DNA of 64,000 nucleotides from Ostreococcus lucimarinus (GCA_000092065.1 CP000582.1); one strand, 5' to 3'; counted from the first letter of the stretch, positions 3,501 to 47,390 are shown. A program made the numbers and translations. Notes: generated by a model from the letters alone, not told the origin.

Positions 3501-3953
3501 CGTGGCCTCCATCGCCTCGGCTTGAACGACGACAGCTTCCCAGTCGTCTGACGACAACGGCGCCACGGACACGCTCTCTGCCGTCGGAAGATCGGCGTTG
3601 AGTTCGTTGCCGAACGCAAAGCGGGCGTCGTCGCCATCCTTAATCCCGAGCGAGCTCGCCAAAGCGTGCGGCACGCCAATCTCTCGCGCGCTTTCGCCGC
3701 CTGGCGTGACTCCTCCAGCCCAAGCGAAGTGCAACACACGACGGCGTCGGCGACTCGACTTCGAGTCCTCGAACTCTAAGACGACGTGACGAGGAAATTC
3801 GCCTCCGTGTGTTCTCGATCGCAGCGTGGCGGAGACCACGTCCGCGGGTAACTGCACGAAAGCGGACCTGTCGTGCACGATTTTGACTCGTCGACGGTCG
3901 TAAGCGACGTCGTACCCGGCAAAAGCCACGTCTCCACCGTCTTCCACGCGCAT
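504..3953 (-). CDS. PEX1: Two-domain AAA+ ATPase, peroxin PEX1-like (D1 Walker A degenerate, D2 canonical)
   Basis: 1149 aa from ATG at 3953. The D1 motif GTLVTGSKGRGRSRLVKSLC resembles the PEX1 D1 motif LLLTGGKGSGKS. D2 has LLYGPPGSGKSAMAKAA with Walker B FFDEFESLAPRRG and the second region of homology ATSRPDVVDPALLRPGRLD. The ORF's first 29 codons lie in the 64-bp tandem repeat and are not expected to be coding. Confidence 0.75.
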   Translation of the reverse strand: MRVEDGGDVAFAGYDVAYDRRRVKIVHDRSAFVQLPADVVSATLRSRTHGGEFPRHVVLEFEDSKSSRRRRRVLHFAWAGGVTPGGESAREIGVPHALASSLGIKDGDDARFAFGNELNADLPTAESVSVAPLSSDDWEAVVVQAEAMEATLLSQIGLAAIGQTVPFYGPGGGKPLFLRVQSIAPASAQVARLAANTELIVEPWRASTTMDSDDEDLVGGLDLREWLENFDENKTSTVLRLQHPTGACAKLLDAHRRVVSYERREFEQELEIPRSTAIAVGSATAKEHKIRHGSLVRAFKHSFEREFDFSRTDDDVTSLFLRVIVVDDDKVVAPQHVAICAAAAHALELFQGDLIRIKEVDEDDVNEPTAFTARLRPVLPAFPSETTDDKNAAATSGDDLFTKRRSILAIARALGPVYAVTLGFNAPGADLDSKAHAEFYDESARALFIAWLREQSTLDREDGVDGAVVINSKTRVAVNVPDNDDRANAIFEVELKYPASARVSNPEKPILVSLKSLLAGPSSKIRVELGEPIRTPRKTSTRNPAPGVTVWPTIPNDDEFAHIPGEALREHTDHVLKNLKTSLWFDAIALRDEYGIGMCAGTLVTGSKGRGRSRLVKSLCKHLATDVKALSGVVEIKCDELPKPHYKALEAMRAGFEAAKSRQPSICYLLNLEKICGADADEEGQSSDSYHLSCIIADAMSEMADADEVTFIATASERDALCKPLREQDVFEYDFEVRKPNMDARKDVILSYAAHRGVDCDEQVADAISQRTDGFDVADLRIIMDRAIESEIDRALSVRANESHRAIGSRIRVSSNELKDALKGYTPIDQLSLAKSDGPDGEGIDEYVDGFDSIGGFDEVKQILEDAIALPARHPKIFSQCPLRLPTGVLLYGPPGSGKSAMAKAAIVNAGLRSITIKGPELFSKYYGESEATLRKLFKRAEDAAPCALFFDEFESLAPRRGGTDGGVTDRMVNQFLTLLDGVESLVGVFVICATSRPDVVDPALLRPGRLDHLLYLPMPDAIARAKIVRTLTREIKVAPGVDLVAIAESERMESFSGADLAAFVSECANVAATRVLKTYTAAVERGEDVAEPNAPPTIEPHDVVEALKRSRASLSQETLLFYKRVHEDFRNSRRASGVGGDAQTFASQ

Positions 3954-3958
3954 GAGTG

Positions 3959-4152
3959 CCGAGTTAATAAGACCACTTAGATGCGTTCTTCTCCGCCTGC
4001 AATTGCGCCGGCGTCTTAACCACCGAGTTAATAAGACCACTTAGATGCGTTCTTCTCCGCCTGCAATTGCGCCGGCGTCTTAACCACCGAGTTAATAAGA
4101 CCACTTAGATGCGTTCTTCTCCGCCTGCAATTGCGCCGGCGTCTTAACCACC
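3959..4152. repeat. Tandem repeat of a 64-bp unit, 3 copies (gagttaataagaccacttagatgcgttcttctccgcctgcaattgcgccggcgtcttaaccacc), intergenic, directly upstream of the PEX1-like start codon
   Basis: Copies at 3961-4024, 4025-4088 and 4089-4152 are identical in the sequence as given. The unit length is not a multiple of 3, so no ORF is maintained through the repeats. Confidence 0.9.
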
Positions 4153-11423: not shown

Positions 11424-12527
11424 TCAGAACGTCGTCTCCGGAGGCCCGCCGCGTCGGAGGAATGACAACCAACGCACCGACTCGAGCCTCTTGACGAGGG
11501 AAGCTTCAAAAGCGCGCTCGCCGTGATTTGTCACGAGCGACCACGAGCTTTCGTCCGGGATGATTTCTTGAAATAAAAGATCGACATCGCCCTCGTTATC
11601 AACGACGCGCATAGACTTGCCCTCGATCTCGCTCAACGTTTTAATCTGCAGCGACATCTTCTGCGAGCCGGGGCCGAAGACGCACGCGACGTCCGCCTTC
11701 GTGGTGTGCGCGGGTACGCGAACCTTAAGAGTCACTTCTTCGTCGTCTTGACTCCATTCGAAATCCTGGTGCGGACCCGGGCGCTGTGAAGGATCTAAGG
11801 GCGCCTTGGGCGCGGCTTCGGCGTCTAAGTCTACCGCGCCTTTGGCCTTGAACTCGGCCATGGTGCGCGCGATGTCGCCGACGTTTTCTTGGCGTTCGAC
11901 CGCCAACGTCTTGGCCTTCATTATCCACGCCGCATCGCTCGAGCACTCGTCCAACGTGAAATCTAATCTTTTGAACTGATCGTCGTCGTCGAATATCCGC
12001 GCTATGAACGCGTCACCGAGTACTTGCTGCGGTGACCCCGCCTCGGCGCTCATGCGACTCGCTCGCACGTTGGTCGGCAAACCTTTGGATATTCCTCGAT
12101 CGTCCACGTACATGTTCACGTGCACGAACCCGGTTTTTTTCGACCCGGGCAATAAAGGCACGGGTTGCGCCATCTGCATCGACAGCGCTGCCGCCATCAT
12201 ATCGTCCGACAGCGTCTTCGCGCCGCCGCCGCCGCCGCCGTCGCCGTGGCTCTCCAGCTGCGCCTTTAGTATTTCCTTTTGTTTCGCCTCGTCTCGTCCG
12301 TGCGCGCCGTCTTTCGCGCCTTCGACGCGAAAGTGTAGGCGCAGCGCGTCGAGCAAGCACTCCATCTCTCGTTCGCGCGGGATGACCATCACGCGCTCCT
12401 CCATAGCGCGCGTCTCGTCCCACGGCACGAACACGTAGCGAAACGCCAACCGATCGACGCTGACGTCGTCGTTCGCGGTGCCGAGCAATCCGCGCGCGAT
12501 TCGATCATCGCTCGCGTTCGTCGTCAT
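11424..12527 (-). CDS. CS (p23/NudC-like) domain protein
   Basis: The ORF is open from a GTG at 12614 and the first ATG is at 12527. The C-terminal CS/NudC-like beta-sandwich is FEWSQDDEEVTLKVRVP...SSWSLVTNHGERAFEASLVKRLESVRWLSF. A Gly-rich linker precedes it. Confidence 0.55.
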   Translation of the reverse strand: MTTNASDDRIARGLLGTANDDVSVDRLAFRYVFVPWDETRAMEERVMVIPREREMECLLDALRLHFRVEGAKDGAHGRDEAKQKEILKAQLESHGDGGGGGGAKTLSDDMMAAALSMQMAQPVPLLPGSKKTGFVHVNMYVDDRGISKGLPTNVRASRMSAEAGSPQQVLGDAFIARIFDDDDQFKRLDFTLDECSSDAAWIMKAKTLAVERQENVGDIARTMAEFKAKGAVDLDAEAAPKAPLDPSQRPGPHQDFEWSQDDEEVTLKVRVPAHTTKADVACVFGPGSQKMSLQIKTLSEIEGKSMRVVDNEGDVDLLFQEIIPDESSWSLVTNHGERAFEASLVKRLESVRWLSFLRRGGPPETTF

Positions 12528-12919
12528 CTTCACCCCAGCGCGTCGCGCAGTGTCGCATCGGTCCGTCGAGCGTCGCGTCCGCGCACGGCGCGCAGCGGCG
12601 CGGGCGAGCGTCACGTCGCGACGCGCACGGACGCGGCACGCGCGCGCGGTGCTCGGACGGCGCCCGGACGCGACCAGACGCGCGCGACCGCGAGTCTCGT
12701 CGTAGTCGCGCGCGAGAGAGAGCTCGAGCGCGCGCGCGCGTTCGCGTGCGCGGTCGTTCGTTCGTTTGATTGATATTTGGATTAGATTCGACGTCGGTCG
12801 TTTCGTCGAGGCGCGCGCGCGACGACGACGGCGACGAACAACGTCGAGCGGTGACGATTGATCGCTCGAGCGGACGCGGGACGAGCAGCGGGAGTGCGGA
12901 AACGCGGCGAACGAGCGCG

Positions 12920-14341
12920 ATGGCGTCGGCGAGCGCGAACGCGGGCGCGGCCGCTGCGCCCGAGCGCACGCTCGGAACGGTATTTCGCAAGGTATTGAAG
13001 ACGCTTTGGGTGCTTTTGTGCGCGCTGATCGTTATAGCTCTGCCATTCGTGTCTTACGACATGAAGAAGCATGATTATCAGACGCATTACATCGCGTGGT
13101 TCATCGCGTTTGTCTTCGTCGCGTTGTCGTTGCCAATCACGCTGTACGAAGTGACGCAGCACCTGGAGAATTATCGTGCGCCGAGATTACAGCGACACGT
13201 GATCAGAATATTGTTCATGGTACCAATTTACGCCGTGAACGCGTGGTTGGCGTTGAGATTCAGGTCGAACACGATTATTTTCGATACGGTTCGCGAGTTT
13301 TACGAAGCTTACGTCATCTACAACTTTTACACATATTGCATCGTGTATCTTCAAGAGTTTTGTTCACCTGGGCTGTCGTACATCGTCGCGCGTAAGGCGA
13401 CACAGCCGCACATTTGGCCGCTGAACTTGTTCCTGCGCGCACCCAGAATGGGTGAGCCTTTTCTGCGACTTTGTCGGCACGGGGTGATCAACTACGTCGT
13501 CGTGCGACCGGTGACGAGCGCGGCGGCGTTCATAGCCGACGGCAATGGCGTGTACGGTGAAGGGCAAATCTTGAATCCATGGGTGGCGTATCCTTACTTG
13601 GTTTTCATTAACAACTTGAGTCAGGCGTGGGCGATGTATTGCTTGATTTTACTGTACAAGGTGATGTACCGAGAATTGGCCCCGATAAACCCGTTTTGGA
13701 AATTCGTCAGCGTCAAAGCCGTGGTCTTCTTTTCCTTTTGGCAATCCATGGCGTTCGCGGTGCTCGTGAAGACGGGGATTATTTCCGCCGACGATCAAGC
13801 GTGGGCATCCGATTACGACGCCGCGGAGTTGGCGAACGGTATTCAGGCGTTTTTCATCTGCATAGAGATGTTCTTCGCCGCCATCGCGCACTCGTACGCG
13901 TTCCCACCAGAAGAGTACAACATGGGCCAAGCCGCGGCTCCACAGAGGAAGTTTAGCGAAAACATCATCGAACTTTTCGATGTGCGTGATGTGTACCAAG
14001 ACATCAAGAACTTTTGGCAGCAACATCGAGATAGACTGACGGGAAACTACAATCCTGGTGTCGCTTCGCCCGTACCGTTGCATCGATCGAATATCGCTCG
14101 AGATCGTAGGCACGAGGATCAAGGTGATCGAGCGATGATGGACATGAGCGCTGGACATGGTAAGTCACTAGAAGAAATCGAAACCGAAACACTGCTCTCG
14201 CACGCCGTCGGCGACGATCAGTTTGAACTCGTTGTGAGTAGCGGCGCCGATGGTGACGAAGCCATCGTCATCGACAGCGTTTCCTCCGACGGAGGATTAC
14301 TTCCACTCCACGCCGAGCGCGCTCGTTCGCACGATGCCTAG
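12920..14341 (+). CDS. TMEM184 / organic solute transporter alpha-like (DUF300) multipass membrane protein
   Basis: The ORF is open from a TTG at 12770 and the first ATG is at 12920. Hallmarks are YEVTQHLENYRAPRLQRHVIRILFMVPIYAVNAWLAL and FYEAYVIYNFYTYCIVYL, with seven predicted TM helices. Confidence 0.85.
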   Translation: MASASANAGAAAAPERTLGTVFRKVLKTLWVLLCALIVIALPFVSYDMKKHDYQTHYIAWFIAFVFVALSLPITLYEVTQHLENYRAPRLQRHVIRILFMVPIYAVNAWLALRFRSNTIIFDTVREFYEAYVIYNFYTYCIVYLQEFCSPGLSYIVARKATQPHIWPLNLFLRAPRMGEPFLRLCRHGVINYVVVRPVTSAAAFIADGNGVYGEGQILNPWVAYPYLVFINNLSQAWAMYCLILLYKVMYRELAPINPFWKFVSVKAVVFFSFWQSMAFAVLVKTGIISADDQAWASDYDAAELANGIQAFFICIEMFFAAIAHSYAFPPEEYNMGQAAAPQRKFSENIIELFDVRDVYQDIKNFWQQHRDRLTGNYNPGVASPVPLHRSNIARDRRHEDQGDRAMMDMSAGHGKSLEEIETETLLSHAVGDDQFELVVSSGADGDEAIVIDSVSSDGGLLPLHAERARSHDA

Positions 14342-14455: not shown

Positions 14456-15532
14456 ATGACTGGTCACACCGACGCGGTCGTGGAGCGCAATTTCAACCGA
14501 TGGCTCGAGCGCGTCCAAGATAACCCCGTGCGCTTTCTCTCGCGTGCCGAGAACGACGAAGGTTCGGGCGTCTCGCGCGCGTTTTTCCTCGACGTCCGCG
14601 ATGCTCAGCACTTTGCCTCGACTCGACTTCGATGGTCCTCCAACGTCCCTCTGCGCGCGCTAGACGAAGGTGCGGCGTATTTAATACCTCCTCGTACCGC
14701 GCGCTTCGCGCTTATTTGCGACGCCGACGCCAACGTGGACGAAGCTGCGAAGAAATTCGAGAGCGACTTCAAAGGCGTCGCGTGGTCGCTCGAAGCTGCG
14801 TTCGCGGGGACACCGGCGTTCTTCGACGCGTGTGCTGCGATCGACGAAAGCGACGCCACAGAGTCAAAATATAATGGGTTGTTTGAAGTAGTTCGCGGCG
14901 GTGGTACGCCCGCACCTCGCGATCGACTTCGACTTTGGCAGCCGTCGCCGGAACTCGCGAGGTGGTTGCCGAGCGTCGAGCGCAAGATGGATGCTTTCAA
15001 AGACGGCAGGCGACCGACGTGCTTGGACGTGGGATCAGGCGCGGGACGAGATGCAGTGTGGGTGGCGAGTCGCGGATGGAACGTCGTGGCGATCGATAAC
15101 GATAAAAGGGGATTGGATCGGTGCCGCTCTTTGGCAGAACGACACGGCGTGGAGGCGAGCGTTCGAACGCTCGATTTAGATTTGAATAAGCGTGCGTCCG
15201 AAGAGACGCTCGCTACAATCGACAAAATACTCGCACTTGAGTCATGGTCGCCCGTTTTAGCCGTATACGCGGTGAGATATCTTCATAAACCGTTCGTACG
15301 AGACCTGCCACGGATGTTGCCGAACCGAAGCGCGGTGTTGTGGTTTCATTTCATGCGGGGATGCGAGCGCACATCCGTCGGACGACCGACGAAAGACCGC
15401 GATTTGCTCGAGCCAAACGAGCTGCGTGACGTATTCGCACTCTGGGATGTCATCATCGACGACGTAGTGGAGCTACCAGATGGGCGGCCGGTGAGCTCGT
15501 TTGCGGTGGTACGCGGTGCAAAGGAGGTGTAA
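14456..15532 (+). CDS. Fusion protein: N-terminal rhodanese-like domain plus C-terminal TehB/TPMT-like SAM-dependent methyltransferase
   Basis: Rhodanese-like block FFLDVRDAQHFASTRLRWSSNVPL...ALICDADANV (Cys loop non-canonical). Methyltransferase motif I CLDVGSGAGRDAVWVASRGWNVVAIDND, then LDLDLN, PNELRDVFALWDVI, closely matching the bacterial TehB layout. Confidence 0.65.
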   Translation: MTGHTDAVVERNFNRWLERVQDNPVRFLSRAENDEGSGVSRAFFLDVRDAQHFASTRLRWSSNVPLRALDEGAAYLIPPRTARFALICDADANVDEAAKKFESDFKGVAWSLEAAFAGTPAFFDACAAIDESDATESKYNGLFEVVRGGGTPAPRDRLRLWQPSPELARWLPSVERKMDAFKDGRRPTCLDVGSGAGRDAVWVASRGWNVVAIDNDKRGLDRCRSLAERHGVEASVRTLDLDLNKRASEETLATIDKILALESWSPVLAVYAVRYLHKPFVRDLPRMLPNRSAVLWFHFMRGCERTSVGRPTKDRDLLEPNELRDVFALWDVIIDDVVELPDGRPVSSFAVVRGAKEV

Positions 15533-15562: not shown

Positions 15563-16315
15563 CTAGCTTGATAAAACCTTAAGTGAACCCGAAGCGTTCT
15601 CCTCGCCCGGCAATCGCTTCTCGTTGTCGTGCATGATGAGCACGAAGAGATTACCCTTGTCGCCTCGCGAAACGCGCACTTCGTCGTCGACGTAAGTAAT
15701 GTCCAACGCCCCTCGCGCTCGCTCGGGTGCGGTGACTTTAATCAAACCACCAAACACAAAAAACTTCTTAAACTGTACCTTGACCGCGGAATCGCTCGTG
15801 GGCGTCAACTCTGCGGCTACGGCGTTGTAAAACGGCCACGTCTCGCGATTTCGAGCGCGCAACGACTCGGCGTCGATTGTTTGGTAAATCTTCCCGCTCG
15901 GGCGTAAAAAAGCCGGCTTTTTCGTACCTAAAATGCTCGCAGACGTCGTGTAAACCAATTCCCACTCGCCGTTGATGCACGGTGCGGCGAGTGATTTCGG
16001 GTTTGGATTGAGCGCTTCGAGCGCTGTTGCCAGAGCGTCCACGTGAGCTTTTTCCTCATCGCTCGCCTTCACCCCGCGCTCGAGCGGTTCGATCGCGCTC
16101 AGCAGCGCTCTCTTCGCATCCTCTCGCGCTTGCGCGTCGGGCGCCGATGCAGTCGCTCTCGTCAACGTCTTTCGCGCCGTCGATGTTGTCGAAGTCGTCA
16201 ACTTCTGCGTCAACTTCGGCGTGTTGGCCGACGACGAAGACGCCGTGCCGCCACGCGTGCGCGCACCGATGGAGCGTGGAGCGACGTTCATCGTCGTTAC
16301 CGTCATGGCGCGCAT
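15563..16315 (-). CDS. Fibrillin / plastid-lipid-associated protein (PAP) family, chloroplast-targeted
   Basis: The ORF is open from a GTG at 16402 and the first ATG is at 16315. PAP_fibrillin signatures are GEWELVYTTS...LRPSGKIYQTIDAE...VKVQFKKFFVFGGLIKVTAP...LDITYVDDEVRVSRGDKGNLFVL. The N-terminus is Ser/Thr/Ala-rich. Confidence 0.8.
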   Translation of the reverse strand: MRAMTVTTMNVAPRSIGARTRGGTASSSSANTPKLTQKLTTSTTSTARKTLTRATASAPDAQAREDAKRALLSAIEPLERGVKASDEEKAHVDALATALEALNPNPKSLAAPCINGEWELVYTTSASILGTKKPAFLRPSGKIYQTIDAESLRARNRETWPFYNAVAAELTPTSDSAVKVQFKKFFVFGGLIKVTAPERARGALDITYVDDEVRVSRGDKGNLFVLIMHDNEKRLPGEENASGSLKVLSS

Positions 16316-16471
16316 CGTGCTCGAGCGTCGCGTTCGACAGTGAGGAACGGCGTGCGGAGCGGTGCGGTGCGGTGAGGATAATCTTCTACTTCGTGGTATC
16401 ACACAAGAATTGGTTAAATTGATTTTACGTCACGAGCGGCGAGCGAAAAGCGAACATCTGTCTAGCAACAA

Positions 16472-17753
16472 TTAAGCTTCATCGACGCTCATCACAACGC
16501 CTTCGGCGGCTTGCATCTTCTCTCTGAACTGGCGACCCATGTCCTCAGCGGTCTCGAACACCGCGGCGGGGTTGCGAAGCATGTCGCCGTGGTTTTGCTC
16601 AAGCTTCTTCGTGCTGAGCGACAAACGGCCTTTCTCGGCATCCTTGGACATGACCAACACCTTGATGCGGTCACCCGGAGAAAGCACGTTTTCGACGGCG
16701 ACGATGCGCTCGTGCGAAATTTGAGAAATGTGCAACAATCCACTCTGACCGCCGACGTCCACAAACGCGCCGTACGGCTTCACCGCTTGCACCATGCCCT
16801 CCACGACGTCGCCAACCTCTAAGCCTTCCGCGGACACCATGTCCGTCGCCAACCGATGCGAAAGCACGAGTCGGTTCTTCTCCTCATCAACCTCGATAAA
16901 CTTGAACGGCAATTGTTGACCGATCAACTCCTCGCGGTTGAGCGTCCGCACGCCGATGTGGCTTTGCGGCACGAAACCGCGAAGCTTTTCAACTTCAACG
17001 AGCAAACCGCCACGGTTAACGCTCAAGACGTCACCAGTGAGTGCGGCATCATCCGCCTGCGCCTCGCGGCAGCGATCCCAAGCCTTCGCGAGCTCCATGC
17101 GGCGCACCGAGAGCGTCATGCAGCCCTCGCCGTTGTCGTCCTGAATGATTTCGAAGTCGTAGTCGCAATCGATGTCGAACACCGCCGCAGCCTGCGTTTG
17201 CACAAAAAACATCGCGCGCGTGATTCGTCAGTCTCGCGGTCCCTGGTATCGTCGCAATTTCTCCCTCGTTCGCGCTGGATCGCCGTCGTCTCTCTCTCTC
17301 GCGGCGACCTAAAAGCCCTAGGTTTTATCCCGTGCCGTCGCGTCGCCGTCGTTCGTTGCGATACGATGCGATCGCGCCCGCGCGCGCGCGTGGCAACGAA
17401 TAAAACGAATATATACTCACGTTGCGCACGTTTCCGAGCGATGCCTCGGACGTCGGGCACAAAGCCTCGCTCTTCGCCCCGATTTCAACCCACGCCCCTT
17501 TCGCGTCGCACGCCTTGATTTTCCCGCTGATGACGTCCCCGACCTTGTAGTTGTACTGGTACTTGTCCAACAACGACGCGAACTCGGTGTACGCCGCGCC
17601 GGTCTTCCCGACGTCCACGTCCTCGCTCACGATCGCCTTGCGAACGATCGCGCGCGCGGGCGCTCTTTGCGCGCCGTGCGTCGAGCGCGACGAGACGAGG
17701 CTCGCGCGTCGCGCGCTCATCATGGAGGTGTGCGTCGTCGTCGTGGCGAGCAT
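16472..17753 (-). CDS. PRPS1: Plastid ribosomal protein S1-like (bS1c), two coding exons
   Basis: Exon 1 is 17421-17753 (transit peptide plus first S1 fold, ...EASLGNVRN) and exon 2 is 16472-17191 (AAAVFDIDCDY... with S1 domains GDVVEGMVQAVKPYGAFVDVGG...). The intron 17192-17420 has donor GTGAGT and acceptor caaacgcAG, is phase 0, and carries the branch motif GAGACTGACGAAT. The ORF is open from a GTG at 17795. Confidence 0.8.
17192..17420 (-). other. Intron (229 nt, GT-AG, phase 0) of the plastid S1 gene
   Basis: On the minus strand the intron runs GTGAGTATAT...CGCGAGACTGACGAATCACGCGCGCGATGTTTTTTGTGCAAACGCAG. The CTGAC of the branch motif is the reverse complement of 17227-17231, 34 nt before the AG. 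Confidence 0.8.
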
Positions 17754-18457
17754 GGCTGATACGAACGAACGAAAACTTGTTTCGATGTGCGTCACCGCGC
17801 GCGGCGAGGCGTCGACGTGTGCCGACCGCGCGGGCGCCGAATCGCGTCCTCGCGGCGGCGAGACGTCGAAGCCCCCATCGCGGGCGGCGGGGATGGTGGG
17901 GGAGTGTGATGGCTTTATTTTGTGTCATTATGCGTACACGGAGGCGATCTGTGAGATAAGTACGTCATAAATCACGTCACGACTGAATACACACATACGC
18001 GTACAGACGTCGTTATCGGACATTCGGCGCGACGGTGGATTCTCGCCTCGACGCAATCGCGCGCTGCACAGGACGAAGTGCGTCGCACGTGAAACGCGCG
18101 AGATGTCCACGGCGGCGGCGCGCGCGCTCGCGGCAGTCGTCGATGCAGAACGGAGCGGTACGTCGAGGGCGCGGCGCGACGCACACGCGCGATGTGCGCG
18201 CGCGATGAGATGAAGGAATCGCGTTTGGATGCTGATGCCGATGATTGACGCGACGAACGATGGATGGCGGACGCGTCGACGCATTCGACGACGACGCACC
18301 GCGAACGAATCGATCGCGATCGATGCGCTCGTAGACTGACGCGGGTGATGACGCACACGCAGTGACGAACGTGGCGAAAGGGCGGGTGTTGAACCGAATG
18401 GAGGAATACGTCGACGTCGAGCGTCGCGAAGACGGCGAAGACGCGAGCGCGTTGGAG

Positions 18458-18583
18458 GTGCGATGATGACGACGCGCGCGAAGTGACACGAACCCTCGCG
18501 CGTGAAATGACGTCTGATGCGTCGCAAACGGTCCGAGACTGACGATTCTACGGTGCGGATGCCGACGACGTACCCAATCTAGG
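18458..18583 (+). other. Candidate 5' intron of the WD40 gene (126 nt, GT-AG)
   Basis: Donor GTGCGATGAT. Branch CCGAGACTGACGATTCTAC (CTGAC 18539-18543, 40 nt before the AG). Acceptor gtacccaatctAG. The interval contains in-frame stops. Confidence 0.5.
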
Positions 18584-21063
18584 TGGCGCCGATTACCGTG
18601 TACGAGACAAAATACGTCGAGGCGCAGTTGCGAATGATCGCCGTGAACGATGCTTTCATATGTTACGGTATTCGAAACGGGTTGATTCGAGTGTTTTCTA
18701 GAAAGTCTGGCAATGTGCGATCGTTGCTTCGCGGACACTCCGATTCAATCTCGACGCTCAAGTTTTTGGCGAACACCGACGTGTTGCTCTCGGTGGACGT
18801 GCGAGGACGGGTGATGGTTCGCAAGTTGAGTTTACAAGGCGCCGACGATGGGGCCTCGATCGATGTGAGCGACGATAACGATGCGGGATGGACGATCGGT
18901 TCGCAGAATTTGGTAGACTTCGACTTCGCAGTGGACACCCCGGACGGGCACCTGCCGCCGTCGGCGTGCTGGCTCCCGCTAGATTCGCGAAAACCCGGCA
19001 AGTGTGAATTCGCCCTGAGCGCGGGGACGTGCGTGGTGTGCTACGAGTGCTCGCTGATGAAGAAAGGGGATGCAATTGCGGCTGAGATCGATCTCAACGC
19101 CCCGCCAGCCATGGATGGTTTACAGGTGATCGAGTTTGATGCCCCGGTGTCTTGCGTGGACAGCGCCCCCGCGGGTCGCAAGCTCGTCGCCGCGAGCGAG
19201 GGCCGTGCGTACGTTTTGGTGAAGGAGGACGGTGAAACGGAGTTTGAGTGCACGGATACACTTCCATGGACGGTGGAAACCGCCGTCTTCGCCTCGGCTG
19301 AACGCGTAATTCTGGGTAACGATAATAACTCAGAGTTGATCGTCGTCGACGTGACGCAAGAAACTCCTTTCGCGGTGCAGCGCGTCGTCTTTAAGTCAGA
19401 CAGTGACAAACTTTTCAACGTATGCTTGCAGCATAACCCCGAAACAGGAATCGTATTGCTTTCGAACACGCGTATGAACACGGTGTACGCTTTACACTTC
19501 GAGAAGAGCTTTGATTACATTGCGCGCTTTGAGGCGTCGCAACCGATTTTGAGCTTTGACTCCCACGTGAAGTACGATGGCGACGGCAGTGCGACGATGC
19601 AATTGTTTTGCTTACAGACGCAAGCGATTCAAACCTTGTCCATGCCGGCTGAAGCATGCATTCCACCAGACGGAGCTCTCGAGGCGCTCGGCTCGTTGGG
19701 TACGCCCAAGACGAAAGGTTCGCTCGAGCACTCATCTTCAGCCACTCTGCTCACTCCGGATATGTTTGGCGGCGCTGAGCTCGCCGGCGACGAGGAGGAC
19801 GAAGAGGAAGAGCGTGCAGCGGTAGTTCCATCGAAAAAGGCTGCTGCGGCCCAACCAGCGTCGTCCGAAGAAAGCATGGGCGAGTCTGGTGCAGAGGAAG
19901 AAGAGGGAGAAGATGAAGAGTTTGAGTCTGCCAACATGAGTGAGAGCGGCGCTGGTGCGATTCCCGTCGCCGCCGCGTTCGATATGAAGCAGTTGAGAGC
20001 GACTATTCGTAACGAAATGCGCGAACTTCTGAACGAAGTTCGCGATGAGCGTCGTCTGGCTGCAGAAGAGCGCAAGGCAGACATGGAACGCGCTCGTAAG
20101 GCGAACGAAACCGCGGCAGCCAACTTGAAGCGAGACGTCACGAATGCTATCGCGGCTCTGTTGCAACAACATTCCGTGGACAATGCAAAGACTTTGGAAG
20201 CTGGCATCGGACGCGCTCAATCTGTTGCTGCAACAAGCGCGCAAACTGCGATGAAGTCCATCGTCGGTCCATCCATTGACGCCGCTGTTCGAGCGCAGAT
20301 GGAAACCTCCGTCGTGCCAAAAATGGAAATCGCGTGCTCGACGATGTTTACGCAAGTCAAGCACACGTTTGAACGAGGTATGGCTGACTTGAACACCGAG
20401 CTTCTCGCTGCGAGAGAATCTGCGGCAATTTCTCAAGCGACGCCGTTCGTCTCCGGTTTGCGCCAGGCGACGACCGAGGTTCGCCAAGCCGCAACAGCTT
20501 TGATGACCGATATCCCAAATCAAGTCGCGCAAGCCATGGCGAAGGTCACGGCGCGCGCACCTTCGGGCATGGGCGCACCTCCCGGGATGGCCCCAAAGAG
20601 CGTGACGCAAGGTAAGACGCTCGCTCAAATCGAACAGCGCTTGGACCCAACTGTGGAGATCAGCAAGTTGCTACAGGCAAACCAAATCGACCGCGCGTTC
20701 AATCTGGCGCTCAGCATGAGCAAGGTTGAAGTCGTCATGTGGCTCGTCAACCAAGTTGCGAGTGATCGAATCTTTGGCCAAACACCGTGTCCGTTGTCGC
20801 AAGGTGTGCTCTTGTCGCTTGTTCAGCAGCTTTCGAGCGATTTGACGACGCCAGACGCGCCCAAGAAGCTCGATTGGATTCGAGATTCTTGCCTCGCCGT
20901 CGATCCGGCGGATCCCGTGTTGCGGCAACACATGCGGCCGGTGCTCAGCACGGTGCACCAGTCGCTCATGGCTGCGGCCAATTCACCGACGAGTGCGCCA
21001 GAAGTACGCGCGGGGACACGATTGTGTATCCACGTCGTGAATTCCATGTTATCTTCTTTGTAA
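18584..21063 (+). CDS. WD40-repeat protein with an acidic/Ser-rich linker and C-terminal helical domain (architecture reminiscent of EDC4/VARICOSE-type proteins); 5' exon(s) probably missing from this ORF
   Basis: The ORF follows a TAG at 18581-18583 and has no ATG at its start. The motif ...GAGACTGACGATTC... plus tctAG immediately upstream mark a 3' splice site at 18583. A candidate exon 1 is 18398-18457 (MEEYVDVERREDGEDASALE) with donor GTGCGA at 18458 (phase 0). A further upstream acceptor candidate is at 18362. Confidence 0.6.
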
Positions 21064-21214
21064 GCCAAGGATTGTTATTTTCATCTATCGCTTCCACGTG
21101 ACCACGCGAGAGCATCTCGAATTATTCACACGCTCGCGCGTACTTCGCCGTAACGCTCAAAACTTCGACGTCTTCCAACGCGCGTGCGTACAATCCATCT
21201 TAGTTTGCTTGTTC

Positions 21215-23350
21215 ATGTCGTCGTCGTCGTCATCATCGTGGTCTAGAGATCCCTTCCTTGGAATGCTTCCTCGCTCGACGAAACTCATCCCCAAGGTGTC
21301 CATTCCCACGGCGATCGTTGAAGACGTCATTTCGCCATGGCGCGCGCTCGACGATCGATGCAAAACGTCGCCGGAATCACGGGCATCTATTGCGGTCGTA
21401 GACTCTTCGTCGCGTGGCGTCGATGCTGCACATTCCGTCGTCGAGTTCTCCTACCGCGCGCTCCGTCTCGAGGCGAGGACGCTCGCTTCGCAGTTGGAGC
21501 AAAATCACGGTATTCGAAAAGGCGATTCTGTGTGCTGCTTTCTAGATAACACAGCTGCATCTATCATCGCGTCCTATGCTATCGCGGGACTCGGAGCGCG
21601 ACGAGTCGACATCAATACTCGTTTGTCAGCTCGCGAGACGGCTTCACGCTTGAAGGTGGCAAACGTCAGAGTAATAATTGCTGGCGACGCTTACGCGAAT
21701 AAGATCGCTTCGGCGGTCTATTCGTTGATGATCGACTACTCCGATCTCAACGGTACTGACGAGCCGATGTCGATTTTGTACGCCGCAGCGCCCGGGGCGT
21801 CTTCTATGGCGGAACTGGCGCTGCCGAACTACGACACAGAGCAACTCGCAGAATTCATGGACATGATGGTCGAATCGACGCGCCTGTGCTTCGACGTCTA
21901 TTCTGCACATCGAGGTGGTGTCGACGTCGTATCAGGGGGTGGTACCGACACATACGATGCTTTCTTATCCGAGTCTGACGAGCCGTGTCTGGGTCTACTC
22001 TCTCAGCTTGAGCGAGGCGACGCGCTGTGCTGGACGCCGCGTCTGGCGGAAGAAGCGCTGCTTGATTGCGATTTTCAGGTCATGTTTACGAGTGGAACGA
22101 CGGGTGCACCAAAAGTCGTCACGCACACTCAAAGGCAAGTGATGTTACACGCGAAATCAGTCGCTCAGTGCTGTGCGTTTGCAAGCCACGACGTGTGGCT
22201 CCACGTGGCTCCGCTCTTTCACGCGATGGACGCCTTTGCGATGTACGCTTGCGTACTCGTCGGCGCCAAGCAAGTATGTACAGCCAGCGAAATCTTCGAT
22301 GTTAAAACGACGCTGCAAACGATGAAAGATGCAGGTGTTACGTTGACCGCGCTCACTTCAACGCATTTGCGAATGCTCGTTTCCGATCCAGCCTTTGCTG
22401 TCTCCGCAAAGCACTTGCGGATGTTATCTGTCGGCGGTTCGGCGGTTCCAGTAGACTTGGTGGCGTCATTAAAGTATCAGTGTCCCCAGTGCACGTACTT
22501 TACCGACTACGGAGCCACTGAGGCTTGTGGTAAGATTTGTACGACGCTCGGCGCGCCCTCGTCGTCCATTGAATCGCTCGCGCGGGCTGGCCACGCTATG
22601 CCCCTTTTCGACGTCTGCGTGGTCAAAGACTCGACAAGTATGGAATCGGTCGAATGGAACGACGTGACGAGAGGAGAAGTGCTTGTTCGAGGACCTACAG
22701 TGATAGGAACTTTTGATGGAAAATGGCACACCGTCGGCGACGTCGCCACGGTTGACGCGAGCGGCTCGGTCAAAATCGTAGATCGCTTGTCTGATATCAT
22801 CATCGTCGGGGGAGAAAACGTGTACTCGAGTGAAGTTGAAGCTGTGCTACTTGAACGTCCTGAAATCGAGGAATGTGCTGTGTTCGGTATGCCTGATAAA
22901 GTTTTGGGAGAAGTCGTGTGCGCTGCGATAGTGCTCAATTCGCGGCAGGCTTCACTGAATTCTAGTGAAGTCACAAAGCACTGCTCGTCGCGATTGGCCG
23001 ATTTTAAGCGTCCACAGCGATTGACGATTGTTGAGTCTTTACCGAAATCGCCCACTGGGAAAGTGCTGAAGCTGAAATTGCAGGCACAGCTTGCGACTCG
23101 CAGCCATGAGGACGGGACCCGTCCTCATGCGGAACTCAGCGATGTTGTTCGCCAAGAGTTTATTCATGCGATGGATTGGAACGATGACCGTGAGATTGAT
23201 ACGAAACAGACATTTTCGTCACTTGGCGTGCGATCAACGCAAGCCGTGTCTTTTGCGAATTTATTGTCTGATAGACTTGGACTTGATTTACCGTCGACGC
23301 TGATGTTTGATCATCCCAATCTCAATAGTGTCATCAACTTTGTCGCCGGA
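21215..23350 (+). other. PKS loading region: AMP-binding (acyl-activating) domain plus carrier protein
   Basis: The adenylation core motifs span about 22080-23070. The carrier Ser motif FSSLGVRSTQAVSFANLL is at about 23210-23260. Confidence 0.75.
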
Positions 23351-26300
23351 CGTACGATGATTCGGAGGAGCGCCTCGAGCATCACTCAGAAGCACGCGCC
23401 GCTATCGTTTTCAAGCGTCTTCGTCACCGAAATCAGCGATGAATTTCCACACGGGGAGATCGACGCTCAGACTGTCATACCGCTTCGCCGCTTTGACGTC
23501 GAGCACCACTTTTCTTGCGGCGATGATTTCGCAACAGCGCCTCTTGGTAGCATCGACGTTCGATTTGCGGCGCTGCTTGCAAACTTTGACGAAGAAGACT
23601 TGCTTGCTTGTGAATTGTCGCCCGTCGAAGCCTCGTACGTGGATCCGCAGCATCGCATTTTGCTCCGTCAAACGCTGCCTGTGCTTCATTTTTCAAATCA
23701 GAGTGCCGACGTCGTCACTGGCGTATTCGTCGGTTGTATGTGGGCTGACGATTACTCGAACGTTTTGTCGTCGTTTCAGTGTGTTTTCGTCTCGCCCAAC
23801 GCCACTCTTGGAATTGGATCCGGATTGGCTTTCCTCAGTGGTCGCATTTCGTTCTCCGCGAATTTGTCTGGGCCGGCGATCGGTTGTGACACGGCGTGCT
23901 CATCTTCTCTTGTTGCGTGCTCTCTTGGTCTGAGCTCGATGATGAAATTTGAATGCGACTCATCGCTGTGCGCGGGCACGAATCTTCTGCTTTTCGTAAA
24001 CACGCATTCAAAAATATGCCGATTAAACGCACTTGCCATGGATGGTCGCTGCAAGACACTGGACTACGCTGCGGATGGTTACGGACGAAGTGAGGGCGTC
24101 GGTAGTTGTCTACTATCGGTTGAAAATGGAAATCCGTGCCATGGGACGTTGGTTTACGTCGGAGTGAACCAAGACGCTCGTAGTGCTGCGCTCGTCGCGC
24201 CCCGCGGCGCCGCTCAATCAGCAGTCATAGCAGAGACGTGCTCGAGGTGCGTTGGGCAACTTACCGTTTACGAACTGCACGGTACTGGTACACAACTCGG
24301 AGATCCAATCGAAATCAGTGCTCTTCGCGAGGCGCTCGAGTGTACGGAGATAGATCTCGTGGCCATTTCCATCACGAGCGTGAAAGCTTCGTTTGGACAT
24401 AGCGAAGGCTCGGCTGGGATCGCTGGGCTTCTCTCCGCCATCATCTCCGACAAAAATCGTCAACGAATGCCGATTCATCATCTGATACATCTTAATCCTC
24501 ACGTAGCAGAGATATCGAATGGGTTGTCGACGCCATTTTCCTTTGGTCGAGTTTTGAGCGCCGGCGTGCGGATAAATCAGAGGAACGGTCGCGGTGAGCA
24601 CTCTGGCGTGAGCGCGTTCGGGATGTCAGGCACGAACGCGAGCGCACTACTTCGGTCAGCTGTACGTAGTGAACAGATAAAGCGCACGAATCGAAGAATT
24701 CTTCTCGATCTCGCGACTTGGTGCTCCATTGATCCGCCCACATTCCCGGCGCTGTTCAGCTTTTGCGTCGCTAGCGACAATGTACTCTTCCAAATCCGTA
24801 TCGATGCTCGCATTTACTCAGGAGCATTCGATATGAGCATTCAACACATGAAGTTCTTCCCTAGTGGACATTGCGTTGAAACCGCGCGTCAGTGCGCGTC
24901 AACGCTAGGGCAAAGATCAGCCGTTGTCAACAGCTTCACGATTCATTCGCCGTTGCGCTTGGCTGAAAATCGCGGCACAGACGTCGTCGTAACCGTTGAC
25001 AAAAGGTCTGGCTTCGTAACGACGGGATCAGCGGACGCATTGGTGAAGTATGCAACGTGTCGGTTTACAATACCCGTGCATTCAATTCCTCCCAAAGGCG
25101 CGCGATGGAACGCTGTCAGAGCAACACCGCCAACCACGATCACCGCTTCGATTCAGCGCACGCAAAAGGTGCGCACCGATTGCATCGACCCGATCTATCT
25201 GGAATCTTTGTTTCAGATAAATTCAGCTTTGCGGCTCGGTGCGACACTGCTAGGATCTCTCAACGCGTATTGCACGCTGACGCGATTTCCTCCGCACGGG
25301 CATCTCAGCGTTACCATGGCTGGTGAATGCGGTAACCTTGCGAGTGCGACGCGTATGACGGGACTCACGCTACATAGAGTGCGAGCAAATGCATTTACAA
25401 GCGCGCGACGAATATCTGACATGCTCTATCACGTATCTTGGTGCGCGGCTGGTGTCGCGACAGCGAGCGGTCGAACTCATCAATCTTTGCGATTAATCAA
25501 CCTCACGGCAAAAGCTTGCGATGCCGTCTGCGCCGGGTTGTCGGCGATTCAGTCTTTCGATGACGCGTCTATCTCAGCTGTTTCGGCAGAAGTTATGCCA
25601 CTCGCGTGTCGCGGCGACGCGTTGCTGGCGCTTGTGCGCACCGCCGCACAAGAGCTTCCTACGATTCGATTCGCTGGCATTCGTTGTGCCGAGAACGCTT
25701 CTTCCTATGACGCACGCGCAAAGTCGTACGCCCCAGGTGCAGCATGTGATATTAAAATCGACGCCCAAGTGGTGTACGAGCAACGCCTTTCTCGCGTCAA
25801 CATGGAATCGTCAACAAGTGAGAACCAAACGTCGTACGCCGTACTCATCACCGGAGGTCTCGGTGGCGTTGGTTTTCACATGGCTAAATGGCTACTTTCT
25901 CACGAGAGTTCTTCATTCACCAACTTACTGAGCCGGATCGGCCGTCAAAATGTGTCATTCGGCGATATCGATGGCAAGAGCGCGCTCATTATTCGTAGAT
26001 GTGATCTCTCTGATCACGAAGACGTTGTCGAAGTTCTCAAGTCGACGAAGATGCGGGCTCCTTTACGAAAGATTTTACACGCGAGTGGGATAATTCTCGA
26101 TAACACACTCGCGAAACAAAATCACGACGGCGTAAAACAAGTTTTTGCTGCAAAAGTAAGCGCGTTTGAAAACATCGAAATGTGTGTCGGGTGTCTGGAG
26201 GCGGTTCACACGAGCGTCGTTTGTAGTTCGATCGCTTCAACTTTTGGCTCACCTGGTCAAAGTAATTATTCTGCCGCAAACGCCGTCCTCGACTTTTACG

Positions 26301-47000: not shown

Positions 47001-47390
47001 AAACGTGGGCACGTCTTTACGCGCCGTCGTCGTCGCGCTTTCGCCGCTCGTCGCCGGCGCCGCGCTCGTCCCGCTCGTCGTCGCCGCCGAGCGCCTGACG
47101 ACGCGCCCGCGCGCCCGCGTCGTTGATGTCGTCGACACGGGCGACATGAGCGCCCGCACGCCTCGCGCGGGCATCGCGCGCGCCTTATCGGCGCGCGCGT
47201 GCGCGCTAAAGTTTCCAATTGAAATCGCCGACGCCGAGGCGCGTGCGAACGACGACGACGTCTGACGCGGCCTGATGACGACGGCGTGCGCGCCAGACGA
47301 CGCGCGGCTCGCGCGAGGGGCCCAGAGGGCGCGCGCCGCCGCGCCGGGGCGGATCGTTCGCGCGATGACGCCCGACATGGTGTGCGGCAT
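44019..47390 (-). CDS. Bacterial-type glycyl-tRNA synthetase, alpha-beta subunit fusion (organellar GlyRS)
   Basis: 1123 aa. The GlyQ (alpha) core is ILRLQEYWSSRGCAIVLPHNTEVGAGTMNPATFLRALGPEPWNVCYPEPSVRPDDSRYGENPNRVQKHTQFQVILKP. A GlyS (beta)-like region follows in the same polypeptide. There is a long N-terminal presequence. Confidence 0.9.
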   Translation of the reverse strand: MPHTMSGVIARTIRPGAAARALWAPRASRASSGAHAVVIRPRQTSSSFARASASAISIGNFSAHARADKARAMPARGVRALMSPVSTTSTTRARGRVVRRSAATTSGTSAAPATSGESATTTARKDVPTFQDAILRLQEYWSSRGCAIVLPHNTEVGAGTMNPATFLRALGPEPWNVCYPEPSVRPDDSRYGENPNRVQKHTQFQVILKPAPENVQELYLGSLEALGIDTGAHDVRFVEDNWESPVLGAWGLGWEVWMDGMEVTQFTYFQQCGSLKVAPTAVEITYGLERILMALQGVDHFKDIAYNDMMTYGEMRMQEEYEMSVFNLDQASVETHRSRFELADKEALRMLEARLPLPAFDNLLKASHAFNVLDARGAVGVTERQKLFASMRKLARETAQLWVARREELGYPLGLSEAPPAKSLVENTGAIPTAPADCVIELGTEELPPQDVTSTSRQFHEAVDALLKAEGLTHAGISVGATPRRFTLSIKALSAGQANVEERVRGPPLSRAFEEDGTTPSKAAQGFCKKNGVDAGALEKDGEYVWAVVKKEGRSAVAVLEEALPKIIAAINFPRAMRWTTNSEAAFSRPLRWLFGVHGDHHLTFEALGVHSGTTTRLLRTRGDVTDTYSAANAAEYHALLAKDSIVLSFEDRMSSIWSEAKAAAKTVGGEIPDSAGEGLLEEVANLVEAPNLVMGDFEEAFLTLPKEVLVMVMRKHQRYFPVEGADGALKPHFITFANGSCDKGVVKHGNEAVLRARYEDAKFFYETDLNKPLAEFKPELSGITFQQELGNMLEKTQRVEGLVADVAAALGYGPDVVAPATVAAGLARADLATAMVMELTALAGTMGRHYAQKEGLPANVSEAIFEACLPRSAGDALPSTPAGITVAVADRLDTLIGLFAVVGGPKASADPFGLRRAAYGLVQTIVNSGATCDLRSLIELAAAKQPVEVSNERIEECVTFITRRLEQLFIDAGNDVECVRAVLKERGGSPALASASISELVAVDGKALETCVRVLSRPTRLVRGKMGANADLRINEASFECEEERALHAAYVAARAKIVDGCSVTDMISAVCEMDNAATAFFDNVFVMADDAELKRNRMALCAAVASLPSGVLDFAELPGGL

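What the first reader, a model, noticed from the sequence alone, without database searches (positions are those of the whole stretch)
14456..15532. Rhodanese-domain / TehB-like methyltransferase fusion, a candidate chalcogen (S/Se/Te) methylation module
The N-terminal roughly 110 residues have the rhodanese fold pattern, though the Cys loop CDADANV lacks the usual trailing Arg. The C-terminal roughly 200 residues match the bacterial tellurite-resistance methyltransferase TehB (GxGxGRD…VxAxDxN…LDLN…). Rhodaneses bind persulfide or selenide and TehB methylates tellurite and selenite. A fusion would couple chalcogen capture to SAM-dependent methylation. This is relevant to the volatile methyl-selenide and methyl-sulfide production known in marine phytoplankton. 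I know of no characterised protein with this exact architecture.
Basis: partly seen in the sequence, partly recalled or inferred. Interest (0 to 1): 0.5.

Follow-up and report, generated by a model that had tools for sequence, protein, structure and literature searches.

The report
Degenerate rhodanese fused to TehB-like methyltransferase
This picoalgal gene really does encode a rhodanese-fold domain fused to a TehB-like SAM methyltransferase, but the rhodanese half has lost its catalytic cysteine in about 93% of relatives, so it belongs to a widespread uncharacterised family and is unlikely to be a sulfur/selenium capture-and-methylate machine.

Summary

Cys88 sits at the canonical catalytic position, but only 11 of 152 family members have Cys there. 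The closest orthologs (about 55% identity) have Thr or Ala, the query's loop is acidic (CDADANV), and no Cys is invariant anywhere in the family. A persulfide or selenide relay therefore cannot be the family's mechanism.

The MTase half keeps invariant SAM-binding and family-specific motifs (GxGxGRD, R274, VGRP, LPDGRP). It clusters with the TehB/Slr1183/thiol-halide MTase supergroup, not with UbiG or rRNA MTases. The TehB link is remote (15% identity; Pfam 20.6 vs 20.4 bits) and the substrate is unknown.

The two-domain family is common in marine protists and trypanosomatids and rare in bacteria. It is already catalogued under generic names, and I found no characterised member.

The parts
14456..15532 (+). 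Complete single-exon CDS, 358 aa plus stop
   Evidence: ORF listing. The identical protein is called in 899 blocks of public assemblies. Orthologs align colinearly. AF2 full-length model has pLDDT 90.8 and pTM 0.89.
14456..14572 (+). N-terminal helical extension (aa 1-39); no obvious targeting peptide
   Evidence: AF2 secondary structure shows helices at aa 13-22 and 24-33. This region is poorly conserved and of variable length in the alignment. Cytosolic location is an inference.
14573..14905 (+). Rhodanese-homology domain (aa 40-150), judged non-catalytic at family level
14717..14737 (+). Pseudo-active-site loop C88-D-A-D-A-N-V94; Cys88 codon is TGC at 14717-14719
   Evidence: The loop aligns to PspE's catalytic loop CNAGRQS with the same length. 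Cys is present in 11 of 152 family members and is T/A/L in the closest orthologs. It is fixed in 11 of 11 variants of the query's own >=90% cluster.
14933..14950 (+). LWQPSP motif (aa 160-165) at the start of the MTase module; W161 is invariant among the 25 members of alignment A1 and >=90% conserved in the broader 33-member alignment A4
   Evidence: Alignments A1 and A4. Its position matches the N-terminal 'W...P' lid segment of the standalone relative P0040 (inference).
14918..15517 (+). Class I SAM-dependent methyltransferase domain, TehB/Slr1183-like (aa 155-354)
15026..15052 (+). SAM-binding motif I, D191-VGSGAGR-D199 (GxGxGRD)
   Evidence: D191, G195, G197 and R198 are invariant in both family alignments; D199 is invariant in A1 and >=90% in A4. 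168 of 175 retrieved relatives carrying the motif end it in GRD. TehB has GRN at this position (alignment).
15269..15286 (+). AVRYLH motif after strand beta4; R274 is invariant and is a candidate substrate-pocket residue
   Evidence: R274 is invariant in A1 and A4. TehB has no Arg at the aligned position (alignment). A role in the substrate pocket is an inference.
15344..15388 (+). FHFMRGCE...VGRP segment (aa 297-311) after strand beta5
   Evidence: F299 is invariant in both alignments; G302, G309 and P311 are invariant in A1 and >=90% in A4. The segment aligns to TehB 'TVGFPF' and to Slr1183 'tGGP' via P0040 'vGRP'.
15473..15490 (+). LPDGRP turn of the C-terminal beta-hairpin (aa 340-345), the family signature
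   Evidence: P341-D-G-R-P345 is invariant in A1; in A4 R344 stays invariant and D342, G343 and P345 are >=90% conserved. It lies between strands 331-339 and 345-352 of the model. It falls in the region where TehB carries His176, Arg177 and Arg184 (residues from my own knowledge; correspondence not tested by superposition).

Best explanation
The gene encodes a soluble two-domain enzyme from a conserved but uncharacterised family. The C-terminal half is an active class I SAM-dependent methyltransferase of the TehB/Slr1183/thiol-halide small-nucleophile supergroup. It most likely methylates a small, probably anionic, nucleophile bound in a pocket lined by family-invariant Arg and Asp residues (R198, D199, R274, R344). 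The N-terminal half is a rhodanese-homology domain that has lost sulfurtransferase chemistry at the family level. It most likely serves as a non-catalytic ligand-binding, lid or docking module packed against the methyltransferase, not as a persulfide or selenide carrier.

Shown: the fold of both domains, the conserved SAM-binding motifs, the non-conservation of the catalytic Cys, and the closest relatives.

Inferred: small-molecule rather than macromolecular substrate, anionic nature of the substrate, the role of the rhodanese domain, and cytosolic location.

For: Link to small-nucleophile MTases: standalone relatives that share the VGRP and DGRP motifs (P0040) match Slr1183 at 2e-19 and thiol/halide MTases at 7e-12 to 1e-9. 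One family member is fused to a TPMT domain.

Likely active enzyme: the SAM motif and family-specific residues are invariant across 25-33 divergent members, and GRD is present in 168 of 175 relatives carrying the motif.

Dead rhodanese: Cys is at the catalytic column in 11 of 152 members, the nearest orthologs have T/A/L, and no Cys appears among the invariant or nearly invariant columns of either family-wide alignment.

Stable fusion: 152 of 191 retrieved relatives carry the N-domain.
Against: No substrate evidence of any kind exists, and TehB's own physiological substrate is unknown (my own knowledge).

hhalign stops before the TehB hairpin that carries its proposed substrate-binding residues.

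Fusions to 2OG-Fe(II) oxygenase, DnaJ and PUB domains, and adjacency to trmH in Kangiellaceae, would fit a macromolecular substrate.

Cys88 is fixed within the query's own lineage, so lineage-specific redox or persulfide chemistry is not excluded.

I could not inspect model coordinates, so the domain interface and the pocket lining are inferred.
Confidence: 0.55

Rival explanations
1. One reading: the rhodanese domain captures sulfur, selenium or tellurium as a persulfide or selenosulfide on Cys88 and channels it to the TehB-like domain for SAM-dependent methylation, producing volatile methyl chalcogenides.
For: Cys88 sits exactly at the canonical catalytic position, with a loop of canonical length (alignment to PspE). 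It is fixed in 11 of 11 population variants of this lineage, and a related fragment, P0058, also has Cys there. The MTase's closest solved relative is TehB, which methylates tellurite and selenite in vitro (my own knowledge). The host clade is selenoprotein-rich (my own knowledge).
Against: The Cys is absent from 141 of 152 family members, including all orthologs at 45-57% identity, which have T, A or L, while the MTase motifs stay invariant. The family's function therefore cannot depend on it. The loop CDADANV carries two acidic and no basic residues, which is unfavourable for an anionic persulfide (inference). The query alone fails the Pfam Rhodanese profile. There is no tehA-like partner and no S/Se-metabolism gene in the neighbourhood.
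Confidence: 0.1
2. The protein is a macromolecular methyltransferase acting on tRNA, rRNA or a protein. The rhodanese-like domain serves as a substrate-recognition module, as it does in ThiI, SelU, TrhO or the MKP phosphatases.
Against: Gene context is not conserved in the other bacterial lineages, where the neighbours are TPR proteins, MltA, DUF418, TrkH, Ogt and an acid phosphatase. The profile ranking favours Slr1183 and TehB over CmoM by two to four orders of magnitude in E-value, and over RNA MTases by more. The nearest standalone relatives cluster with thiol/halide MTases. No recognised RNA-binding domain is present.
Confidence: 0.22
3. The protein is a non-enzymatic SAM- or ligand-sensing protein (a pseudo-methyltransferase) whose two domains act only as a regulatory or scaffolding unit.
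For: One of its two domains is already catalytically degenerate. Fusions to DnaJ and PUB domains occur in some relatives.
Against: All canonical SAM-binding elements are invariant or nearly so across bacteria and eukaryotes: the GxGxG motif, the acidic residue at the end of beta2 (D214) and D242. So is a family-specific constellation around the expected substrate site (R274, VGRP, DGRP). This pattern is typical of active enzymes.
Confidence: 0.05

Closest known systems
TehB tellurite-resistance methyltransferase (Pfam PF03848; E. coli 2XVA/4DQ0; H. influenzae 3M70)
   Different: Identity is only 15%. The Pfam score is at threshold and covers only the SAM-binding part, and the NCBIfam equivalog cutoffs are missed by about tenfold. 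TehB lacks the rhodanese domain; H. influenzae TehB has a different N-terminal domain. The C-terminal hairpin with TehB's His176, Arg177 and Arg184 (my own knowledge) does not align. This family has the shorter LPDGRP turn and an extra invariant R274. There is no tehA partner.
Slr1183 (Synechocystis; PDB 2KW5/3MER) and standalone bacterial 218-aa 'class I SAM-dependent methyltransferases' such as P0040 (Rhodococcus koreensis)
   Same: Slr1183 is the best sequence-profile match among solved MTases (E=3.5e-9). P0040-type proteins share the N-terminal W...P segment, motif I, the vGRP motif and the DGRP hairpin with the query.
   Different: They have no rhodanese domain and no known function; the only literature hits for Slr1183 are two NMR-modelling papers and one cyanobacterial transcriptome study, none characterising its function. 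Identity to the query is about 31% over half its length.
Thiopurine/thiol/halide methyltransferases (Pfam PF05724 TPMT; fungal TMT1 9H0D; bacterial HMT 8AJP; plant HOL)
   Same: They belong to the same supergroup of small-nucleophile MTases. P0040 relatives hit them at 7e-12 to 1e-9. Four of 25 family members hit Pfam TPMT weakly. One family member (P0106) is physically fused to a TPMT domain.
Catalytic single-domain rhodaneses (PspE 2JTQ, GlpE 1GN0, TVG0868615 3GK5)
   Different: The catalytic Cys is not conserved (7% of members). The query's loop is acidic. The query alone does not reach any Pfam Rhodanese score.
Non-catalytic rhodanese-homology domains (MAPK-phosphatase N-terminal domains 2VSW/2OUC, USP8 2GWF; plant TROL and CaS, the last two from my own knowledge)
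   Different: They are fused to phosphatase, protease or membrane anchors, not to a methyltransferase, and they score lower structurally than the bacterial single-domain rhodaneses.
CmoM/SmtA, tRNA cmo5U methyltransferase (8JOZ/4HTF)
   Different: In the profile search it scores about 1e-5, against 1e-7 to 1e-9 for TehB and Slr1183. It has no rhodanese domain and lacks the VGRP and DGRP signatures.

Membership tests
Class I (Rossmann-fold) SAM-dependent methyltransferases | Seven-stranded Rossmann-like fold with motif I (GxGxG), an acidic residue at the end of beta2, and an acidic residue after beta3 | tested here: met
TehB (Pfam PF03848 / NCBIfam TehB equivalogs) | Score above the curated family thresholds over the full-length profile | tested here: inconclusive
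   Pfam gives 20.6 bits against a gathering score of 20.4, covering only profile positions 33-94 of 193. NCBIfam equivalogs score 32.8 vs 303, 29.1 vs 218 and 20.1 vs 219.5, so none is met. 22 of 25 relatives hit PF03848 at E<=0.01.
TehB (Pfam PF03848 / NCBIfam TehB equivalogs) | Closest structural and profile similarity is to TehB rather than to other MTases | tested here: met
TehB (Pfam PF03848 / NCBIfam TehB equivalogs) | Conserved substrate-site residues His176, Arg177 and Arg184 in the C-terminal hairpin (from my own knowledge of Choudhury et al. 2011; the paper is not held) | tested here: inconclusive
   hhalign ends at TehB residue 167. The query's hairpin is shorter and has one invariant Arg (R344, in LPDGRP). 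An ungapped extension of the alignment would put R344 on TehB Arg177 and Gly343 on His176 (inference). No structural superposition was possible.
TehB (Pfam PF03848 / NCBIfam TehB equivalogs) | Confers tellurite or selenite resistance, or methylates these oxyanions; genetic partner tehA | not testable with these tools
   This needs an experiment. No tehA-like gene lies next to the query or next to the bacterial homologs examined.
Catalytic rhodanese / sulfurtransferase (Pfam PF00581 with an active site) | Rhodanese alpha/beta fold | tested here: met
Catalytic rhodanese / sulfurtransferase (Pfam PF00581 with an active site) | Catalytic Cys at the start of the six-residue active-site loop, conserved among orthologs | tested here: not met
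   The Cys is present in the query (C88, aligned to PspE's Cys) and in its >=90% cluster. It occurs in only 11 of 152 family members and in none of the 45-57% identical orthologs.
Catalytic rhodanese / sulfurtransferase (Pfam PF00581 with an active site) | Electropositive active-site loop (e.g. CRxGx[R/T], CNAGRQS) | tested here: not met
   The loop is C-D-A-D-A-N-V, with two Asp and no Arg or Lys. Orthologs have [TA]DP..., also without basic residues.
TPMT / halide-thiol methyltransferases (Pfam PF05724) | Match to the PF05724 profile | tested here: not met
   The query has no PF05724 hit at E<=10. Only 4 of 25 relatives match, weakly (best 5e-4). The relationship is indirect, through the P0040/Slr1183 group.
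Uncharacterised 'rhodanese-like + TehB-like MTase' family (this family) | N-terminal rhodanese-like domain with LDxR...ELPP, the LWxPSP linker, and an MTase with GxGxGRD, R274, VGxP and LPDGRP | tested here: met
   All these motifs are present in the query and are invariant or nearly invariant across 25-33 members from algae-like eukaryotes, Trypanosoma and bacteria. 263 representatives (clusters at 50% identity) score E<=1e-10.

The most novel reading that the evidence does not exclude
The pseudo-rhodanese domain is an integral substrate-binding lid of a TehB-like methyltransferase, in a family conserved from marine picoalgae to trypanosomatids. Identifying its ligand, for example a small sulfur, selenium or halide nucleophile or an anionic metabolite, would reveal a new eukaryotic methylation pathway. 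It might also reveal the long-unknown physiological substrate class of TehB/Slr1183-like enzymes. In this Ostreococcus-like lineage specifically, the Cys at the canonical position could add a redox or persulfide switch.
Probability: 0.25. Interest if true: 0.55.

Novelty: new variant of a known kind. Interest (0 to 1): 0.33.

Why it matters
If the family methylates small S, Se or halide nucleophiles, it would be a candidate source of volatile methylated compounds from very abundant marine picoeukaryotes; the exact protein occurs in 899 blocks of public marine assemblies. It would also give a handle on the unknown natural function of TehB-like enzymes.

The work also serves as a caution. A Cys at the canonical rhodanese position in one species is not evidence of sulfurtransferase chemistry when 93% of homologs lack it.

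As it stands, this is an uncharacterised, already catalogued domain fusion with no functional data, so it is of moderate rather than high interest.

Tried and rejected
1. Pfam and NCBIfam scans on the query alone gave only generic or threshold-level hits and no rhodanese hit. Family profiles and structure prediction were needed.
2. Conserved gene neighbourhood in bacteria: 14 loci compared. Only Kangiellaceae (two loci) and one Enterobacterales MAG share spoT-ridA(-trmH) upstream; the other contexts are unrelated. I rejected this as strong evidence for a tRNA role.
3. Domain-fusion partners are heterogeneous (TPMT once, 2OG-FeII oxygenase twice, DnaJ, PUB), so there is no consistent signal.
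4. A profile search of the 5.8-billion-protein set for named homologs was limited by the word index and added no new names.
5. Foldseek against AFDB50, intended to list UniProt organisms with the same architecture, was not available.
6. The TehB structure paper is not held, and other TehB papers gave no residue information.
7. Literature searches for rhodanese+TehB, rhodanese+methyltransferase fusions, Ostreococcus, Trypanosoma, Slr1183 and algal Se-methyltransferases found no characterisation of this family. The SPS2-methyltransferase fusion in Naegleria (PMC4561486) is a different architecture.
8. The viral contig scan matched only the generic SAM motif, so a viral origin is rejected.
9. Rfam and tRNA scans of the window found nothing relevant to the finding.
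10. My first Cys count used the wrong residue number (86). It was corrected to C88 with an HMM-anchored alignment.

Full report
**1. Is the feature there?**

Yes. Window 14456..15532(+) is an ATG-to-stop ORF of 358 aa, with in-frame stops upstream. It sits 114 nt after a Solute_trans_a gene and 30 nt before a convergent PAP_fibrillin gene. The identical protein is called on contigs in 899 blocks of public marine assemblies, with the same neighbours (CS-domain, Solute_trans_a, this gene, PAP_fibrillin, S1) in 3 of the 4 places shown; the fourth lies in a 140-Mb record with different neighbours and no DNA was returned. Orthologs at 45-57% identity align colinearly over 96-98% of the length, so the gene is complete and has no introns.

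The rest of the window encodes PEX1, EDC4, a fused organellar-type GlyRS and a giant type I PKS. With the gene density and 55-70% GC, this points to a Mamiellophyceae (Ostreococcus-like) picoalga. That assignment is an inference.

**2. N-terminal half**

The query alone gives no Pfam Rhodanese hit even at E<=10, and only E=1.2 to PspE. With family information the picture is clear:

- Seven of 25 homologs hit Pfam Rhodanese at E<=0.01, best 2.6e-7.
- A profile of the N-domain hits the P. aeruginosa rhodanese 1yt8 (7e-16), 3tp9 (1e-10) and PspE (1.4e-8).

The domain spans about aa 40-150 and follows two N-terminal helices.

**3. Is the rhodanese catalytic?**

I anchored 152 family members carrying the N-domain on a family HMM. 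The Cys88 column reads G39, L38, A27, V12, C11, T4, S4, so Cys is present in 7%. Every ortholog in the 45-57% identity range has Thr, Ala or Leu. No Cys appears among the invariant or nearly invariant columns of either family-wide alignment. The query's loop has two Asp and no basic residue.

Cys88 is nonetheless fixed in all 11 sequence variants of the query's own >=90% cluster, and it recurs in one related fragment (P0058). It is a lineage-specific state, not a family feature.

The methyltransferase motifs are invariant across exactly the same sequences. Whatever the family does, it cannot depend on a rhodanese persulfide.

**4. C-terminal half**

It is a class I SAM methyltransferase; Methyltransf_25 and Methyltransf_11 pass their Pfam thresholds. 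The Pfam TehB hit is at threshold (20.6 vs 20.4 bits) and covers only the SAM-binding third of the profile. The NCBIfam TehB equivalogs are missed by an order of magnitude.

Three more sensitive tests nevertheless agree that TehB-like proteins are the nearest known relatives:

- The family profile against PDB sequences gives Slr1183 at 3.5e-9 and three TehB entries at about 1e-7. All other MTases score 8e-6 or worse, including a UbiG at 2.8e-3 and an RNA MTase at 1.2e-3.
- hhalign of the family against E. coli TehB gives 97.4% probability (E=1.5e-11) over TehB residues 32-167. The aligned region includes the post-beta5 segment VGRP...ELR against VGFP...GELR.

Standalone bacterial relatives that share the VGRP and DGRP motifs (P0040) match Slr1183 at 2e-19 and thiol/halide methyltransferases at 7e-12 to 1e-9. 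The domain thus belongs to the TehB/Slr1183/TPMT supergroup of small-nucleophile methyltransferases.

There are limits. Identity to TehB is 15%. The margin over generic MTases is modest. The alignment ends before the TehB hairpin that carries its proposed substrate residues, His176, Arg177 and Arg184 (my own knowledge; the paper is not held). In that region this family has a shorter hairpin with the invariant LPDGRP turn, plus an extra invariant Arg (R274) that TehB lacks.

**5. The family**

An exhaustive search of 1.84 billion representatives finds 1,224 proteins at E<=1e-3 and 263 at E<=1e-10. Of 191 retrieved sequences, 152 carry the rhodanese-like N-domain, so the fusion is the family's normal state.

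Members are mostly eukaryote-like sequences from marine metagenomes, plus Trypanosoma theileri and T. melophagium. Among one genome per species for 185,579 bacterial and archaeal species, only about 17 lineages have full-length homologs: Kangiellaceae, Thiothrix, Piscirickettsiaceae, Permianibacter, Eisenbacteria and Planctomycetota.

Residues invariant across both family-wide alignments are P78, D191, G195, G197, R198, R274, F299, E322 and R344. W161, D199, G309, P311, D342, G343 and P345 are invariant in the 25-member alignment and at least 90% conserved in the broader 33-member one. This is the signature of an active enzyme with a defined, probably anion-binding, pocket (inference).

Automatic annotation already labels members 'SAM-dependent methyltransferase/rhodanese-related sulfurtransferase' (JGI) or 'methyltransferase domain-containing protein' (NCBI). 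No characterisation turned up in the literature.

**6. Clues to function**

Bacterial gene context is not conserved. Kangiellaceae place the gene overlapping trmH after gmk-rpoZ-spoT-ridA, and one Enterobacterales MAG has it directly after spoT-ridA. Elsewhere the neighbours are TPR proteins, MltA, DUF418, TrkH, Ogt or an acid phosphatase.

Fusion partners in longer family members are heterogeneous: one TPMT domain, two 2OG-Fe(II) oxygenase domains, one DnaJ and one PUB. There are no full-length viral homologs. These data do not settle the substrate.

**7. Verdict**

My estimates for the candidate explanations are:

- About 0.55: an active TehB/Slr1183-like small-molecule SAM methyltransferase, whose N-terminal pseudo-rhodanese acts as a non-catalytic binding, lid or docking module.
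- About 0.22: an RNA or protein methyltransferase.
- About 0.05: a pseudo-enzyme.

In novelty terms it is a new, uncharacterised variant of a known kind that databases already hold under generic names. Interest is moderate.

Noticed in passing
window 21098-36616 (+): A single uninterrupted 5,172-aa ORF encodes a giant modular type I polyketide synthase: an AMP-binding loading domain, 4 KS, 3 KR, DH domains and 4 ACP. It coincides with the lower-GC stretch of the window (0.51-0.55, against 0.58-0.70 elsewhere).
   Followed up: partly
window 44019-47390 (-): An 1,123-aa ORF fuses the glycyl-tRNA synthetase alpha and beta subunits (tRNA-synt_2e + tRNA_synt_2f). This is the bacterial or organellar type of GlyRS, here as one polypeptide.
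   Followed up: partly
window 51651-51716 (-): ARAGORN calls a tRNA-Gly with the unusual anticodon ACC. It lies inside a 68% GC stretch covered by several overlapping long ORFs, and Rfam gathering thresholds give no hit anywhere in the window. It is probably a false positive.
   Followed up: no
window 15563-16402 (-), 16472-17212 (-), 17325-17795 (-): Directly downstream, convergent and only 30 nt from the stop codon, is a PAP_fibrillin (plastid lipid-associated) gene, followed by two S1-domain genes. These look like plastid-targeted proteins and have no evident functional link to the methyltransferase.
   Followed up: partly
window 504-4040 (-), 11424-12614 (-), 12770-14341 (+), 18583-21063 (+): The neighbours are ordinary eukaryotic housekeeping genes: a PEX1-like AAA ATPase, a CS-domain (NudC-like) protein, a Solute_trans_a (TMEM184/OST-alpha-like) membrane protein and an EDC4-like decapping factor. 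All appear as long single ORFs with very short intergenic spacers.
   Followed up: partly
L001 5354-6897 (Aliikangiella maris); L015 4364-5843 (Kangiella MAG); L009 2556-5798 (Enterobacterales MAG): In these bacteria the rhodanese-MTase homolog sits at the end of the gmk-rpoZ-spoT-ridA(-trmH) cluster. It overlaps the trmH stop by 31 nt in Aliikangiella, and in L009 it occupies the position directly after ridA. Other bacterial lineages do not share this context.
   Followed up: partly
Proteins P0106, P0129, P0165, P0146, P0150 (metagenomic family members): Longer family members carry extra domains: a second, TPMT-type methyltransferase (P0106), a C-terminal 2OG-Fe(II) oxygenase (P0129 and P0165), an N-terminal DnaJ (P0146) and an N-terminal PUB domain (P0150). 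I did not check whether these are true fusions or merged gene calls.
   Followed up: no
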